Shown: one piece after another, positions 54,147 through 57,861 of the stretch | How positions within the stretch are numbered: the stretch's first letter is position 1 | How the letters are laid out: the number at the start of each line of letters is the position of its first letter | Assembly (NCBI GenBank): GCA_020632135.1 | Contig: JACKGC010000001.1 | Coordinates: 180,241 to 244,240, forward strand | Source: Candidatus Nomurabacteria bacterium | GTDB taxonomy: Bacteria > Patescibacteriota > Minisyncoccia > Phycocordibacterales > UBA918 | Direction: 5' to 3' | DNA length: 64,000 nt | Notes under the pieces: model-generated | What the model was told of the DNA's origin: nothing | The model's database searches: none | Seen by the model: only the letters and a program-made list of their open reading frames with translations | Program-made: the position numbers and the translations under genes

Positions 54147-55265
54147 CTAGTCGATCTCGAGATCAAGCTCTGACTCAAGCTCAGCAGAGGTAAGTCCCGT
54201 ACGCAATGCCACTTCTGCAATCAGCGCTGCTTTAGTGGTGTACACCGTGTTGTACTCCAGCTTCTTACTTCCGTACTCAACGCGCACCTCCGCTTTTAGC
54301 CCTTCAACCCGTACTTCAAACTTTTTGATACTACCATTCCACTCAGTATCGTCGTCAGAATCATCTTCGTCATGGTCTCGGCCTCGGTGGTCGTCGTCAT
54401 CGTCTTCCCACTCTTCTTCGTCTTCAAACTCCCATTCATCTTCGTCCTCATACTCCTCTTCCCACTTGTCTTCGTAGTCGTCATCATGGTCACCGAAGTT
54501 TGTAGATACCGACTCTTCTGCCTGCACGCCGGCCTTTGACCCCTGAGCGTCTTGCTCTCTAACTTGTACACGTACGTCACCGTCATCATCAATTCGTAAC
54601 CTGAAGCCGTCGTCACGCACCTCGATCCGATCATCTTTGATCTCTACTCGAGTATTGTCTTCAGTTTGTACATTTGTGGTCGTTTCACTTCGGCCAGCGA
54701 TCTTTACTTTATCGATGTCTGCCTGCAGTTCAGTCAGGATCTGGACCCGGATATCACGGTCATCGAAATCTTCTAGTGAGTCCAATACGGCAGTGACGGC
54801 CTTGGCGATGCGCTCCTCGCCGCTTTCGCGCACAGTAACTGAAGCTGAAGTTGATGCACTTGAAGATGCGGCCACTTCAGCTTCGGTCGACTCCGTTTCT
54901 TCACTAATGATCTCACGCAGCTCAGCCAGGCGTTCAGCGGAGAACTGCGCGCGAAGCTCCGCTTCGCGCGCCTCGCCGGCAAAGGCAAGTTGTACGCGTT
55001 CAGCCGCTCGCTCGATCGGGAACAAGAGGTCTCCTGGCTTAGCGTCGTTTGACGCTGCAACGGTGCCAGTGGTGCCAACTATTACTACTAAGGCTACAAG
55101 TACTCCGGTCATGGTTTTAGTTCGTGAATGAATGAAGGCAGCGTATGGTGACGGAGTTGGTGCGGCCACCTTGGCTTCGATCACCCGCAACACCGCAGCC
55201 TTCTCTTCCGCAGAGAGTGTCGGTCGTTCTTTTTCTATTCGGTTGTCTAGATCATCATTCGACAT
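54147..55265 (-). CDS. putative membrane-anchored anti-sigma factor with poly-acidic Trp-punctuated tract
   Basis: Starts 7 nt after the ECF sigma gene. One TM helix (TGVLVALVVIVGTTGTVAA). Tract DHDDDYEDKWEEEYEDEDEWEFEDEEEWEDDDDD. Confidence 0.6.
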   Translation of the reverse strand: MSNDDLDNRIEKERPTLSAEEKAAVLRVIEAKVAAPTPSPYAAFIHSRTKTMTGVLVALVVIVGTTGTVAASNDAKPGDLLFPIERAAERVQLAFAGEAREAELRAQFSAERLAELREIISEETESTEAEVAASSSASTSASVTVRESGEERIAKAVTAVLDSLEDFDDRDIRVQILTELQADIDKVKIAGRSETTTNVQTEDNTRVEIKDDRIEVRDDGFRLRIDDDGDVRVQVREQDAQGSKAGVQAEESVSTNFGDHDDDYEDKWEEEYEDEDEWEFEDEEEWEDDDDDHRGRDHDEDDSDDDTEWNGSIKKFEVRVEGLKAEVRVEYGSKKLEYNTVYTTKAALIAEVALRTGLTSAELESELDLEID

Positions 55266-55272
55266 GGCGATG

Positions 55273-55806
55273 TTATGCGTTAAGGATCGAAGCCAGTGCC
55301 GCGCGAGCGCGATGATGGCGCACCCGTACCGCAGACTCCTTCATATTAATAATGGTTCCTATTTCAGCAAACGTGAACCTCGACCAGTGGTGCAGTACCA
55401 CGATCTCGCGCGAAACGTCGTCGAGTGTTTCGAGTGCCTGAGTGACTGAACAGTTCTGTTCTACAGCTGACTCTGCGCTACCATGCCACTCTTCCTGCAA
55501 CTCGGCCGTTTCGTGCTTCTTGGTCTTGGCGTAGTATGCAGCTAACTGGCGGCGTACGATCGTAAAGAGAAACGAGTAGAACGCTGCGTCAGACTGATAG
55601 GTAAACCGGGGCAGGGACTTGTAGAGCTCTATGAACACATCCTGGGTAACCTCTCTCGCGTCCTCATGAGAATTGGTGCGAAACGCAACAAACGAAAAGA
55701 CGCGATCGACAGTGTGTTCATAGAGCGCAGCAAATCCCTGACTGGTATCAGCCACTGCGTGATTCACTAATGCTTTTATTTCGATTGACTCCATGGTGTC
55801 ATTCAC
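55273..55806 (-). CDS. ECF-type RNA polymerase sigma-70 factor
   Basis: Region 2 (AREVTQDVFIELYKSL) and region 4 (FAEIGTIINMKESAVRVRHHRA). Confidence 0.85.
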   Translation of the reverse strand: MNDTMESIEIKALVNHAVADTSQGFAALYEHTVDRVFSFVAFRTNSHEDAREVTQDVFIELYKSLPRFTYQSDAAFYSFLFTIVRRQLAAYYAKTKKHETAELQEEWHGSAESAVEQNCSVTQALETLDDVSREIVVLHHWSRFTFAEIGTIINMKESAVRVRHHRARAALASILNA

Positions 55807-55886
55807 TTATACAATGTGGCAGGTTTTGGGAAACGTTACAAGTGCACAAGAAAAGAGGGCGAGGCCTTCGGCCCCGCCCTCTCTTT

Positions 55887-56195
55887 CTACCTCCTAACCC
55901 TGATCTGAAACCGCACCTGCTCCCCCGCTTCCAACCCTTCGTTCTTCCGCACCACCGCCTTCACCGGAAGTATATATGAGCCTGAAGTTTTCTCTGGAAA
56001 GATCGATGTCCTCCAAGAAGTCTTACCAATAGTGACTTCAACCGGCAGTGACCCAAACCCTCTCGCATGCTTTCCGTATGTCTCTTTTATCTCCATCCCA
56101 ACCTGCTTGGTTACCGGAAGGAAATGCCACGCGCCACCTTCAGTCGACCAGAGAAACATCTTTTCACGCATGATGTAGGTGGCTGGCTTGCTCAT
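55887..56195 (-). CDS. DUF1905-like small protein
   Basis: GGAWHFLPV...LPVEVTIGKTSWRTSIFP pattern (from memory). Confidence 0.55.
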   Translation of the reverse strand: MSKPATYIMREKMFLWSTEGGAWHFLPVTKQVGMEIKETYGKHARGFGSLPVEVTIGKTSWRTSIFPEKTSGSYILPVKAVVRKNEGLEAGEQVRFQIRVRR

Positions 56196-56201
56196 AGCGC
56201 C

Positions 56202-56717
56202 TTAATTCACCTCTACACACTCTCCCGCTTCATAGCTACGCACCCGATCATTGGCACAGGCATAACAACTGTTGCTGAATGTCTCTGGTACCGGATTGCA
56301 CGGTGTCGTAATGCATTCCACTTGCACGAAACCACACACCGGTTCATATAAGTCGATACACGCAACGTGTGCGTCAGTCTCGCGCGGTTCACAATAGTGC
56401 ACTGTGGGTGAAGGGACAGCTTCGACCGCTTCAGGACAAGGTGAAAATTCACAGTTCGGGCCAGTGCGCCCGACAAACGAACCGTCTGGACACATCTTGG
56501 CGTCCATCGTACACGCTACTAGTTCGCCTGGGGCTGATTGAGCTGGCACCTCATCGAGGGTCGTGTCTTCCGGTTCTGTTTCAAGCTCAAGCGATGAGGG
56601 GTCAATCTGGGTCTGCTGTGGCGCCAATGCTGGTGGTGCCGTAAGGAGCAATCCCAACACCACGAGCATAAGCACCAATATGGTGACTCCTGCGACAGTT
56701 TCAAATGTACGTTTCAT
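56202..56717 (-). CDS. anchored/secreted Cys-rich protein with Kazal-like domain
   Basis: N-terminal TM/signal. C-terminal CIDLYEPVCG...TFSNSCYACAN fits the Kazal pattern C-x-YxPVCG...N-x-C. Confidence 0.6.
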   Translation of the reverse strand: MKRTFETVAGVTILVLMLVVLGLLLTAPPALAPQQTQIDPSSLELETEPEDTTLDEVPAQSAPGELVACTMDAKMCPDGSFVGRTGPNCEFSPCPEAVEAVPSPTVHYCEPRETDAHVACIDLYEPVCGFVQVECITTPCNPVPETFSNSCYACANDRVRSYEAGECVEVN

Positions 56718-56789
56718 AATAGATATATGATGGCAGCTTCTGACAAGCGGCGCAAGCCGCTTGCCTGCATTTTGCTATACTCAAAAGAT

Positions 56790-57221
56790 ATGACAAAAAC
56801 TCAGAACAAAACTCAACCCACCAAGCTCACACCTGCCGCGTTCATCAACACAATCAGCGATGAAAAACAACGCACTGAAGCAAAAATACTACTCAGTATT
56901 TTTGATGATGTGACCAAGACCAAAGGGGTCATGTGGGGCAACATCTTTGGCTTTGGGTCGTATCACTATACATACCCTTCTGGGCGCGAGGGTGACTTTC
57001 TGGCGACTGGCTTCGCGATCCGCAAAAGTGGTCCTACCATTTACATCATGCCTGGTTATCAGGACTACAGCGAATTACTACAAAAGATCGGCCCACACAA
57101 ACTAGGTAAATCGTGCCTCTACCTCAAGAACCTCGATGAACTACACGTGCCGACATTAAAAAAACTGATCAGAGCGGGCTTGCGAGATCTGAGAAAGACC
57201 TCTCCCGTTTCACTGAAGTAG
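56790..57221 (+). CDS. DUF1801/YdhG-like protein
   Basis: Start at MTKTQNK. WGNIFGFGSYHYTYPSGREG pattern. Confidence 0.55.
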   Translation: MTKTQNKTQPTKLTPAAFINTISDEKQRTEAKILLSIFDDVTKTKGVMWGNIFGFGSYHYTYPSGREGDFLATGFAIRKSGPTIYIMPGYQDYSELLQKIGPHKLGKSCLYLKNLDELHVPTLKKLIRAGLRDLRKTSPVSLK

Positions 57222-57482
57222 CGCTTCTTTTTCTTTCCGAGTGAGCTGCTTGATGGCAGCTTCGCGTTGCATGGCTGCACTACGCGACGAGAATGACTCA
57301 CTATAAACCAGCATGACCGGGCGGGGGGGGGCGGCCCCCCCCCCCCCCCCCCCCCCCCCCGCCCGCGCAGTCCTCGTCGCCCCTTCTCCATTATGCTCGG
57401 ATACTCGCTTTTCTAGGTCGGTCGTATAACCGGTGTACAACGAACCGTCGGCACACTCAAGCATGTACACATAGTGCGTCAT
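57210..57482 (-). CDS. GIY-YIG (UPF0213/YhbQ-like) nuclease carrying an in-frame poly-Gly insertion
   Basis: HYVYMLECADGSLYTGYTTDLEKRVSEHN...RPVMLVYSE is the GIY-YIG core. The roughly 12-aa insert AGGGGGGGGAAPP is encoded by the homopolymer tract. Confidence 0.8.
   Translation of the reverse strand: MTHYVYMLECADGSLYTGYTTDLEKRVSEHNGEGATRTARAGGGGGGGGAAPPRPVMLVYSESFSSRSAAMQREAAIKQLTRKEKEALLQ
57323..57360. repeat. G9-C-GG-C26 homopolymer tract (self-complementary)
   Basis: Direct reading gives 9 G, then CGG, then 26 C, flanked by GGGC...GCCC. Confidence 0.95.
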
Positions 57483-57784
57483 TGATCAGAGTGATGCTTA
57501 GCACCCCACTGCCACTTTGGGGGCTCACCAGTGCGCCAAGACACGACGATGAGTAACAGAGTAGCTGCTACTAATGCAGCGACGAATTTAAACGGACTCG
57601 CTTCCACTCCGCCGGTATACTCAGCGTAGAGCACCATCCCTAAGACAAAGAGAAGATAGAGACCAACGACCGCCCAACCCGCAGGCTTGGCTGGTGTCCA
57701 ACCATAACCGTAGAGTTTGCGCTTGAACCAGTATCCCTCAGGATTATCCTTAATATATGCTGTGTATTCCTCCCAAAACTTCAT
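57479..57784 (-). CDS. small 2-TM membrane protein
   Basis: Start at MKFWEEY. YGYGWTPAKPAGW followed by two hydrophobic helices. Confidence 0.55.
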   Translation of the reverse strand: MKFWEEYTAYIKDNPEGYWFKRKLYGYGWTPAKPAGWAVVGLYLLFVLGMVLYAEYTGGVEASPFKFVAALVAATLLLIVVSWRTGEPPKWQWGAKHHSDQ

Positions 57785-57832
57785 AAAAATAGTATGTACC
57801 TGCTGAGAAGGGTTGTAAAGTGAGAAAAGCAC

Positions 57833-57861
57833 AGCGCGGGGTCCCTTCGGGACCCCGCGCT
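57833..57861. terminator. hairpin AGCGCGGGGTCCC-TTCG-GGACCCCGCGCT
   Basis: 13-bp GC stem with a UUCG loop, lying between the ABC-F gene and the membrane gene. Confidence 0.65.

What the first reader, a model, noticed from the sequence alone, without database searches (positions are those of the whole stretch)
57319..57367. In-frame G9/C26 homopolymer hairpin inserted into a GIY-YIG nuclease gene
- The plus strand reads GGGCGGGGGGGGGCGG-C26-GCCCGC.
- On the coding (minus) strand this adds about 12 residues (AGGGGGGGGAAPP) between the conserved ...TARA and RPVMLVYSE segments of an otherwise typical UPF0213/YhbQ-type protein.
- The tract is self-complementary (G9 pairs with C9, GGGC with GCCC). 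The G26 run on the coding strand could form a G-quadruplex.
- A 26-nt homopolymer should be highly prone to slippage, so it could act as a phase-variation switch. Any length change of plus or minus 1 nt would frameshift the gene.
- Equally, poly-G/poly-C runs are a known artefact of some sequencing chemistries and assemblers.
Basis: partly seen in the sequence, partly recalled or inferred. Interest (0 to 1): 0.6.

Follow-up and report, generated by a model that had tools for sequence, protein, structure and literature searches.

The report
Assembly artefact over a coding palindrome
The G9/C26 run is almost certainly an assembly error, made where sequencing failed on a very stable GC-rich palindrome inside a small nuclease gene, so it is not a phase-variation switch.

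Summary
The letters are in the window exactly as reported, and they are a clear outlier: a 52-nt stretch of only G and C, where no other G or C run exceeds 6 nt. The tract is not a clean insertion. It overwrites the nearly invariant G-A-K/R-Y-T-R motif of a UPF0213/GIY-YIG protein. The window comes from MAG HK-STAS-PATE-21, a Unicycler hybrid assembly run with --no_correct. Independent short-read contigs of the same strain are 100% identical to the window over kilobases. All of them stop in the tract. They differ from the window at only two mirror-image positions (57325 and 57358). Their version restores the family consensus (..TARAAG / PRRPV..) and gives two perfectly complementary 11-nt arms. 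Three orthologues carry a perfect 14-18 bp palindrome with a TAC loop at this same spot. The best reading is that a real GC/GGC-rich coding palindrome of about 39 nt defeated Illumina sequencing from both directions, and the hybrid assembler bridged the resulting dead ends with spurious G and C runs. Phase variation is not supported. Raw reads were not available, so the true central ~24 nt remain unknown. The only item of modest interest is the palindrome itself, which is conserved through compensatory changes.

The parts
57210..57482 (-). UPF0213/YhbQ-type GIY-YIG nuclease gene (90 aa as assembled). It is identical to NCBI protein P0001 from 'Candidatus Nomurabacteria bacterium'.
   Evidence: ORF. 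Pfam PF01541 at E=3e-17. Exact protein found once, on a 651,216-bp contig. The orthologue matches PDB 1YWL and 1ZG2.
57319..57367 (.). The reported tract GGGCGGGGGGGGGCGG-C26-GCCCGC. It codes (minus strand) for R-A-G8-A-A-P-P-R in place of the conserved R-x-A-G-A-K/R-Y-T-R-x-R-R.
57323..57331 (+). G9 run. Position 57325 is contradicted by independent contig L003, which has C on the + strand there. 57326-57330 is supported by L003.
57335..57360 (+). C26 run. Position 57358 is contradicted by independent contig L002, which has G on the + strand there. 57355-57357 and 57359-57360 are supported.
57331..57354 (.). 24 nt with no independent support. This is the presumed spurious bridge or fill. The true sequence is unknown. 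By homology, about 15 nt completing the palindrome and coding ..A-R-Y-T-R.. would be expected.
   Evidence: L003 starts at 57330 and L002 ends at 57355. No contig crosses the tract in the JGI or GTDB collections. The expectation comes from orthologues and is an inference.
57318..57328 (+). Outer part of the left arm of the real palindrome, CGGGCGGCGGG in the independent contigs. The window has G instead of C at 57325.
   Evidence: L003 and L004 sequences. It is complementary to 57355-57365 by direct reading.
57355..57365 (+). Outer part of the right arm of the real palindrome, CCCGCCGCCCG in the independent contigs. The window has C instead of G at 57358.
   Evidence: L002 and L001 sequences.
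57479..57832 (-). Upstream co-oriented gene for a 117-aa (or 101-aa) small membrane protein. Its stop overlaps the GIY-YIG start (ATGA), so the two are probably one operon. The synteny is conserved in orthologues.
56727..57221 (+). Convergent DUF1801 gene that overlaps the 3' end of the GIY-YIG gene by 12 nt. It served as the anchor for finding contigs on the right side of the tract.
57833..57861 (.). Intergenic perfect 13-bp GC-rich hairpin with a 3-nt loop. It is not part of the artefact. It works as an internal control, because independent short-read contigs cross it at 100% identity.

Best explanation
The G9/C26 tract is an assembly artefact sitting on top of a real, very stable, GC- and GGC-rich perfect palindrome. 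By homology this palindrome has 18-bp arms and a 3-nt TAC loop, about 39 nt in all, and it encodes the conserved R-x-A-G-A-R-Y-T-R-x-R-R-P segment of a UPF0213/GIY-YIG nuclease.

Proposed mechanism:
(1) Single-stranded template folds into the hairpin. Illumina synthesis entering from either side reads the first 7 nt of the arm (CGGGCGG) correctly. It then miscalls the next C as the preceding G and degenerates into G calls. On the + strand this appears as a G run from one side and a C run from the other.
(2) Correct and erroneous reads coexist, so de Bruijn graphs branch and dead-end at exactly those positions.
(3) Unicycler was run without read correction. It joined the two dead ends using Nanopore long-read evidence and then short-read polishing. 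That left error-tail G and C runs, plus a 24-nt unsupported fill, in place of the palindrome centre.
(4) G/C-only sequence cannot contain a stop codon, and the length happened to be +9 nt. The ORF therefore stayed open and was annotated as a 90-aa protein.

What is shown: the tract itself, the replacement of the motif, the mirror-image disagreements, the contig dead ends, the palindromes in orthologues, and the provenance and pipeline. What is inferred: read-level stalling and miscalling, how the exact letters arose, and the true central sequence.
For: 1. Motif replaced. The window protein is the only one of 21 aligned homologues that lacks the nearly invariant G-A-x-Y-T. The motif is present in the solved UPF0213 structures and in 77 of the 80 loci scanned (79 GTDB relatives plus L019).

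2. Unique to one assembly. The exact protein occurs in 1 contig out of 5.8 billion clusters, and the next-best hit is only 68% identical.

3. Same strain, different tract. Logan contigs L001-L004 and L009 are 100% identical to the window over 1.4-6.6 kb. L002 (3,813 nt) and L003 (5,487 nt) each have a single mismatch, at 57358 and 57325, both inside the tract edges.

4. The independent version makes biological sense. ..GCGGGCGGCGGG translates to TARAAG and CCCCCGCCGCCCGGTC to PRRPV, which matches the homologue consensus TARxAG...xRRPV. The two 11-nt arms are exact reverse complements.

5. Dead ends at the tract. All five distinct contigs that carry a flank end inside the tract. L001 ends at 57359 and L004 starts at 57324, each exactly one base before a discordant position, which marks a graph branch point. 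L009 shows a third version, C22 followed by GCCCGGTC. No crossing contig exists in the JGI or GTDB collections.

6. Orthologues have a palindrome here. The syntenic orthologue L019 has a perfect 18-bp palindrome with a TAC loop at this spot (-30.9 kcal/mol, z = -6.1). L104 has 16 bp and L181 has 14 bp.

7. Provenance. The 651,216-bp contig matches HK-STAS-PATE-21 of Liu et al. 2021, which was assembled with Unicycler v0.4.8-beta using '--no_correct' from Illumina plus PromethION reads.

8. Known failure modes. Inverted repeats inhibit Illumina elongation in both directions, GGC motifs trigger runs of miscalls, and miscalled bases mostly equal the preceding base (PMC3141275). At graph dead ends Unicycler uses the long-read consensus directly as the bridge ('more likely to contain errors') and then polishes with Pilon (PMC5481147).
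Against: 1. No raw reads were examined, so stalling and miscalling are inferred from contig ends.

2. The same pipeline (HK-STAS-PATE-29 = L019) and a Logan short-read contig (L020) crossed the orthologue's equally stable palindrome correctly. Coverage was not limiting. Something more than hairpin stability must be at work in this strain, such as the extra GGC motif, the G5/C5 runs, or a longer true centre.

3. Pure homopolymer tails, such as the C22 in L009 (a contig seen in two samples), are more typical of two-colour dark cycles. The paper reports 'HiSeq', which is four-colour chemistry.

4. The window is 9 nt longer than the canonical palindrome. If the Nanopore reads set that length, the true centre may differ from the orthologues.

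5. The ORF stays open, although this has a 1-in-3 chance and G/C-only sequence cannot encode a stop.
Confidence: 0.85

Rival explanations
1. The tract is a real lineage-specific allele. The palindrome centre was really remodelled into G/C homopolymers in part of the HK-STAS-PATE-21 population, for example by palindrome-induced breakage and faulty repair, or by template switching. This inactivated or altered the nuclease. The L002/L003 version is a co-existing intact allele.
For: At least three versions of the right edge exist in different read sets: the window, L003, and L009 with C22. The L009 contig recurs in two samples. The ORF remains open. Perfect palindromes are known to be unstable in bacteria (general knowledge). 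The orthologue's palindrome was assembled without trouble, which hints that this strain's locus really is different.
Against: The versions differ by mirror-image substitutions that begin at the same depth (the 8th base) in each arm. Read-direction artefacts produce that pattern automatically. Real mutation would need two coordinated changes plus expansions, in genomes that otherwise show 0 mismatches over more than 20 kb. The allele removes a nearly invariant motif. No assembly other than the error-prone hybrid bridge contains it. No known mechanism creates a G(n)C(m) run.
Confidence: 0.08
2. This is the first reader's reading: a real in-frame poly-G/poly-C contingency tract that switches the GIY-YIG gene on and off by slipped-strand +/-1 changes, possibly helped by G-quadruplex or hairpin formation.
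For: A 26-nt homopolymer would be extremely slippage-prone if it were real. The tract is in frame. Assemblies disagree at the locus.
Against: The 'ON' frame lacks the conserved G-A-K/R-Y-T-R motif, so there is no functional ON state to switch. Neither the orthologues nor the roughly 150 relatives in which the motif could be scored carry a homopolymer or poly-Gly loop here. The observed differences are substitutions in palindrome arms, not length variants. The independent contigs show non-homopolymeric GGC-type sequence. A real 26-nt run is shorter than k=31 and would not by itself break those assemblies at the exact discordant bases.
Confidence: 0.03
3. The tract is a chimeric join or misassembly. 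Two unrelated contig ends carrying poly-G/poly-C tails were joined, so the two halves of the gene do not belong together.
For: G-run followed by C-run is the classic look of two poly-G read tails meeting head to head.
Against: The two flanks are the N- and C-terminal halves of one GIY-YIG gene, in frame and in the right order. The flanking gene order (ABC-F, membrane protein, GIY-YIG..., DUF1905, sigma-70, DUF5667) matches the orthologous loci L019/L020 and L182. Only the central few dozen bases are wrong, so the join itself is correct.
Confidence: 0.02

Closest known systems
Illumina sequence-specific errors at inverted repeats and GGC motifs (Nakamura et al. 2011, NAR 39:e90, PMC3141275)
   Same: The site combines both published triggers: a long GC-rich inverted repeat and repeated GGC. 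Errors start at a fixed position in each read direction. The first miscall (C read as G) equals the preceding base. Coverage and assembly break down locally.
   Different: That paper describes fluctuating miscalls from dephasing, not clean homopolymer tails of 20 nt or more. No read-level data were available here. The instrument model could not be checked.
Unicycler long-read bridging of dead ends in the short-read graph (Wick et al. 2017, PMC5481147)
   Same: The source MAG was built with Unicycler (--no_correct). Short-read graphs dead-end at exactly this locus. The paper states that such bridges use the long-read consensus directly and are error-prone.
   Different: A Nanopore consensus normally shortens homopolymers rather than creating a G26. 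The letters may instead come from uncorrected SPAdes tips or from Pilon local reassembly. This could not be resolved.
Poly-G read tails from two-colour Illumina chemistry (NextSeq/NovaSeq 'dark' cycles); from my own knowledge, not a paper read here
   Same: A G run on one strand meeting a C run on the other is the expected footprint of reads that go dark from both directions. L009's pure C22 tip fits this.
   Different: The source paper reports a 'HiSeq' instrument, which uses four-colour chemistry. Dark-cycle tails usually arise at fragment ends, not at a fixed genomic position, unless synthesis stalls there.
Homopolymeric contingency loci (poly-G/C phase variation in Campylobacter, Neisseria, Haemophilus, Helicobacter); general knowledge
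   Same: A G/C homopolymer inside a coding region, in frame.
   Different: Real tracts are typically about 8-13 nt, vary in length between reads and strains, sit where the ON frame gives a functional protein, and recur in related strains. None of this holds here.
Quasipalindrome-associated template-switch mutation (e.g. Klaric, Perr & Lovett 2020, PMC7202029)
   Same: It offers a mechanism by which an inverted repeat is kept or made perfect through paired changes in both arms. That pattern is seen between L019, L104 and the window strain.
   Different: It applies to the underlying real palindrome, not to the G/C tract. It was not tested here. Selection on a DNA or RNA hairpin would give the same pattern.

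Membership tests
UPF0213 / YhbQ-type GIY-YIG nuclease (Pfam PF01541) | Significant match to the GIY-YIG domain model across the whole domain | tested here: met
   PF01541 at E=3.2e-17, 63 bits (cut-off 22.6), profile positions 2-76 of 78. The orthologue matches PDB 1YWL and 1ZG2 'UPF0213 protein' at E about 1e-19.
UPF0213 / YhbQ-type GIY-YIG nuclease (Pfam PF01541) | N-terminal Y-x-Y ('GIY') and Y-T-G ('YIG') motifs, the conserved Arg, and the R-E-x-A-I-K Glu | tested here: met
   YVY, LYTGY, KR and QREAAIK are present. Invariant columns Y19, T20, G21, Y22, R29, R73, E74, I77 and K78 are kept in the window protein.
UPF0213 / YhbQ-type GIY-YIG nuclease (Pfam PF01541) | Nearly invariant G-A-K/R-Y-T-R motif before R-P-V | tested here: not met
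   The motif is absent from the window protein as assembled, where G8-AAPP takes its place. The independent contig edges restore ..AAG and PRRPV.., which suggests the real gene has it. A hypothetical repaired protein scores 68.3 bits against 63 bits.
Phase-variable homopolymeric contingency locus | Homopolymer tract reproducibly present at the locus in independent data from the same strain | tested here: not met
   The independent contigs show GGGCGGCGGG / CCCCCGCCGCCC at the edges instead of homopolymer, and none contains the tract.
Phase-variable homopolymeric contingency locus | Length polymorphism (+/-1 unit) of the tract between reads or strains | not testable with these tools
   This needs raw reads. 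What can be seen between assemblies are substitutions and ragged ends, not a length series.
Phase-variable homopolymeric contingency locus | The in-frame (ON) state encodes a functional protein | tested here: not met
   The in-frame product lacks the conserved G-A-K/R-Y-T-R motif.
Phase-variable homopolymeric contingency locus | Tract, or an equivalent repeat, present in orthologues or related strains | tested here: not met
   There is no homopolymer or poly-Gly loop in P0002-P0017, nor in the roughly 150 relatives in which the motif could be scored.
Sequencing/assembly artefact at a structured GC-rich site | A known error trigger at the site (long inverted repeat plus GGC motifs) | tested here: met
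   11-nt perfectly complementary all-G:C arms with GGC repeats are seen in the independent contigs. Orthologues have 14-18 bp perfect palindromes at the same codons. The triggers are as described in PMC3141275.
Sequencing/assembly artefact at a structured GC-rich site | Independent assemblies of the same strain break or disagree there and nowhere else | tested here: met
   Five contigs end in the tract. There are 0 mismatches elsewhere over 1.4-6.6 kb each. The only two mismatches are at 57325 and 57358.
Sequencing/assembly artefact at a structured GC-rich site | An assembly pipeline able to fill short-read dead ends with lower-accuracy sequence | tested here: met
   HK-STAS-PATE-21 was built with Unicycler v0.4.8-beta --no_correct from Illumina and ONT reads. 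Dead-end bridges use the long-read consensus.
Sequencing/assembly artefact at a structured GC-rich site | Read-level signature: strand-specific miscalls, quality collapse, no read spanning the whole tract | not testable with these tools
Functional or maintained coding palindrome (the underlying real feature) | Pairing conserved across orthologues with two-sided compensatory changes | tested here: inconclusive
   93.8% of cells are paired against 28-51% in the slid controls. 2 of 18 pairs have changes on both sides. There are only 4 sequences, and 32 of 500 shuffles reach the observed score.

The most novel reading that the evidence does not exclude
The locus could be a truly unstable perfect palindrome. 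It is kept perfect by compensatory change across OLB19 Paceibacteria, at the codons for the core motif of a structure-specific-nuclease-like UPF0213 protein. In this reading the centre really is being remodelled into G/C homopolymers in part of the natural population. That would be a palindrome-driven on/off or hypervariable switch of a nuclease gene in an ultra-small CPR bacterium. A milder form is that the tract is an artefact but the palindrome itself is a selected DNA or mRNA hairpin, for example an autoregulatory substrate of the encoded nuclease.
Probability: 0.05. Interest if true: 0.6.

Novelty: not a real feature. Interest (0 to 1): 0.12.

Why it matters
The finding matters mainly as quality control. 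A deposited, PGAP-annotated protein (P0001, 'GIY-YIG nuclease family protein') in a near-complete Patescibacteria MAG very probably carries a fabricated poly-Gly segment. That error has already spread into protein databases. It also shows a general failure mode. Hybrid assemblers can silently bridge short-read dead ends at GC-rich palindromes, and the result can be an open reading frame that looks like a spectacular contingency locus. Scans for phase-variable tracts or G-quadruplexes in MAGs should screen out G-run/C-run junctions of this kind. The biological remainder is modest: a perfect 14-18 bp coding palindrome, conserved with compensatory changes, centred on the Tyr codon of the G-A-R-Y-T-R motif in one sub-clade. 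It may be worth a look by people who study palindrome maintenance or UPF0213 function.

Tried and rejected
- Exact-protein look-up of the 90-aa product in public assemblies found nothing. The source was reached through the neighbouring genes instead.
- I scanned the JGI metagenome contigs and the GTDB genome contigs for any contig that crosses the tract, using the pattern GACTGCGCGGGCGG-N15-45-GCCCGGTCATGCTGG. There were 0 hits in each, so the true centre could not be recovered.
- I tested whether the palindrome is a family-wide property of UPF0213 genes. It is not. Among 76 GTDB and 74 metagenome relatives scored, perfect stems at the motif are 3-8 bp, except in L104 (and L019, which was scored alongside). 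Members that encode A-K-Y lack the palindrome.
- I considered that the 8-residue loop specific to the CPR subfamily arose as an inverted duplication of the downstream T-R-x-R-R-P codons. Only 3 of its residues lie in the palindrome arm, so I dropped the idea.
- I considered that low coverage explains why PATE-21 failed where PATE-29 succeeded. Their abundances are 0.108% and 0.277% of more than 500 Gb, so coverage was ample. Rejected.
- I looked for a known structured RNA at the site. Rfam gave only sub-threshold noise.
- G-quadruplex potential of the G26 run is trivially true for the assembled letters. It becomes irrelevant if the run is not real, so I did not pursue it.
- Ordinary GC hairpins are not a general cause of assembly breaks here. 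The 13-bp perfect hairpin at 57833-57861 is crossed cleanly by the same contigs.

Full report
1. The observation

The + strand at 57319-57367 reads GGGCGGGGGGGGGCGG-C26-GCCCGC, with G9 at 57323-57331 and C26 at 57335-57360. It is not a chance feature. The stretch of only G and C at 57317-57368 is 52 nt long, and the next longest in the 64-kb window (51% GC) is 15 nt. No other G or C homopolymer exceeds 6 nt. The tract lies in frame in a 90-aa ORF on the minus strand (57210-57482) that matches Pfam GIY-YIG at E=3e-17. The closest orthologue matches the solved 'UPF0213' structures 1YWL and 1ZG2.

2. It is a replacement, not an insertion

The nearest homologues read EHNGEGxTxxARxAGAKYTRGRRPVxLVY. 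The window protein reads EHNGEGATRTAR-AGGGGGGGGAAPP-RPVMLVY. In a 21-sequence alignment it is the only member without the nearly invariant G46, A47, Y49 and T50, and its net length difference is +3 residues. The motif is also present in both solved structures and in nearly all relatives scanned. So the tract does not sit between intact conserved segments. It overwrites about 10 conserved residues.

3. Independent assemblies of the same strain

The exact 90-aa protein exists in only one contig of the 5.8-billion-cluster collection. That contig is 651,216 bp long and labelled 'Candidatus Nomurabacteria bacterium'. The next-best relative is only 68% identical. I retrieved independent short-read contigs of the same organism through the neighbouring genes. 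They are 100% identical to the window over 1.4-6.6 kb each.

All five distinct contigs that carry a flank stop inside the tract:
- L001 ends at 57359.
- L002 ends at 57355.
- L003 starts at 57330.
- L004 starts at 57324.
- L009 runs into a C22 tip that does not match the window.

L002 and L003 each have one mismatch to the window in their entire length, at 57358 and 57325. These are mirror-image positions in the two tract edges. L001 and L004 terminate exactly one base before those positions. A de Bruijn unitig does this at a branch, so both base calls must co-occur in those read sets.

On the coding strand the independent version reads ...GCG CGG GCG GCG GG (TARAAG) and C CCC CGC CGC CCG GTC (PRRPV). 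This restores the family consensus on both sides. The two 11-nt edges, CGGGCGGCGGG and CCCGCCGCCCG, are exact reverse complements. No contig in the JGI metagenome set or the GTDB genome set crosses the tract.

4. What is really there

The syntenic orthologue is P0002 (L019, and identically L020). At the same codons it has CGGACGGCGGGCGCGCGT-TAC-ACGCGCGCCCGCCGTCCG. This is a perfect 18-bp inverted repeat with a 3-nt loop formed by the Tyr codon of G-A-R-Y-T-R (DNA fold -30.9 kcal/mol, z = -6.1). Two further relatives have the same architecture: L104 with 16 bp and L181 with 14 bp.

The independent edges of the window strain fit this palindrome with an A:T to G:C change on both arms. L104 differs from L019 by a G:C to C:G swap on both arms. 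Across the four sequences, 93.8% of cells are paired against 28-51% when the partners are slid, and 2 of 18 pairs show two-sided changes. With only four sequences this is suggestive and not conclusive.

The palindrome is specific to this sub-clade. Members that encode A-K-Y, and about 150 other relatives, have stems of 8 bp or less.

I infer, but cannot show, that the true sequence of the window strain is close to GCG CGG GCG GCG GGG GCG CGT TAC ACG CGC CCC CGC CGC CCG (fold -31.4 kcal/mol). A protein repaired in this way scores slightly better against Pfam than the assembled one (68.3 against 63 bits).

5. Provenance and mechanism

Supplementary Table S3 of Liu et al. 2021 (Microbiome 9:205, PMC8518188) lists HK-STAS-PATE-21 with these properties: 3 contigs, largest 651,216 bp, GC 0.505, genus OLB19 (Paceibacteria), 0.108% relative abundance, not circular.

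These MAGs were made from Illumina 2x150 and PromethION reads. The workflow was metaFlye, then binning, then two rounds of Unicycler v0.4.8-beta with '--no_correct'.

[quoted passage not shown] Pilon polishing follows (PMC5481147).

Nakamura et al. 2011 showed several relevant things about Illumina errors (PMC3141275):
- Long inverted repeats inhibit Illumina elongation in both directions.
- GGC motifs trigger runs of consecutive miscalls.
- Miscalled bases mostly equal the preceding base.

The window deviates from the independent contigs in just this way. In each read direction, CGGGCGG is followed by G instead of C, and then by more G.

The most economical account has three steps:
- Reads fail on the hairpin from both sides.
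- The short-read graph dead-ends there.
- The hybrid assembler joins the ends, leaving a G run (from one read direction), a C run (from the other) and 24 nt of unsupported fill at 57331-57354.

G/C-only sequence cannot encode a stop codon, and the length is +9 nt, so the ORF survived and was annotated.

6. Weak points

- I had no raw reads.
- The same study and pipeline assembled the orthologue's palindrome correctly (HK-STAS-PATE-29), and so did a Logan contig (L020). Coverage was not limiting. Something beyond stem stability must make this strain's site refractory. Candidates are the extra GGC motif, the G5/C5 runs, or a centre longer than the canonical one (the window is +9 nt).
- Clean homopolymer tails such as L009's C22 look more like two-colour dark cycles than four-colour dephasing, yet the paper says 'HiSeq'.
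- The exact origin of the letters is unresolved. They could come from the Nanopore bridge, from Pilon local reassembly or from uncorrected SPAdes tips.
- These gaps leave about 10% for a real variant allele. Very little is left for classical phase variation, because the 'ON' frame lacks an essential motif, no orthologue has a tract, and the inter-assembly differences are mirror-image substitutions, not length changes.

7. Comparison with known things, and verdict

The gene is an ordinary UPF0213/YhbQ-type GIY-YIG gene. It lies in a conserved arrangement (ABC-F, small membrane protein, GIY-YIG) with an ATGA start/stop overlap. The tract behaves like a sequence-specific sequencing error combined with a hybrid-assembly bridge error. 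It fails every testable criterion of a contingency locus. No Rfam family matches the site.

The reported feature is best classed as not real, and I score its interest as low. The remaining curiosity is the perfect coding palindrome, conserved with compensatory changes. Quasipalindrome template-switch correction (PMC7202029) or selection on a hairpin could explain it. This was not tested further.

Noticed in passing
L019:3127-3165 (orthologue HK-STAS-PATE-29). The same codons in L104 and L181. Arms at window 57318-57328 and 57355-57365.: A perfect GC-rich coding palindrome (18, 16 and 14 bp arms with a 3-nt TAC loop) centred on the Tyr codon of the conserved G-A-R-Y-T-R motif. It is restricted to one sub-clade of CPR UPF0213 genes, and two base pairs change on both sides between orthologues. 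It could be maintained by quasipalindrome template switching or by selection on a DNA or mRNA hairpin.
   Followed up: partly
window 57833-57861: A perfect 13-bp GC-rich hairpin with a 3-nt loop (-18.6 kcal/mol, z = -6.5) lies in the 33-nt spacer between the ABC-F gene and the membrane-protein gene. It has no T-run after it. Independent short-read contigs cross it at 100% identity. Its function is unknown (possibly an mRNA processing or stability element).
   Followed up: partly
window 57479-57482, and loci L019, L182: The small membrane-protein gene and the GIY-YIG gene overlap by ATGA (stop and start), and the order ABC-F, membrane protein, GIY-YIG is conserved in related Paceibacteria. This suggests a co-translated pair of unknown joint function.
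   Followed up: no
Alignment A1 and PDB 1YWL/1ZG2: The Patescibacteria-type UPF0213 proteins carry 8 extra residues (GEGxTxxARxA) just before G-A-K-Y-T, compared with the solved bacterial structures and the haloarchaeal homologues. This is a lineage-specific loop next to the conserved motif.
   Followed up: no
window 1-64000: GC skew is negative on the + strand throughout the window (C 17,716 against G 14,887; cumulative skew -2.8 with no turning point). There is also a lower-GC stretch at about 4-14 kb (0.43-0.48 against 0.51 overall), which could be a foreign island.
   Followed up: no
L008 (GCA_020428785.1, JAGQMD010000023.1), aligned to window 54167-57159: A second deposited MAG of the same species (99.8% identical) has a contig that ends about 160 nt before the tract. 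This is consistent with the region being a recurrent assembly break point in short-read MAGs.
   Followed up: no
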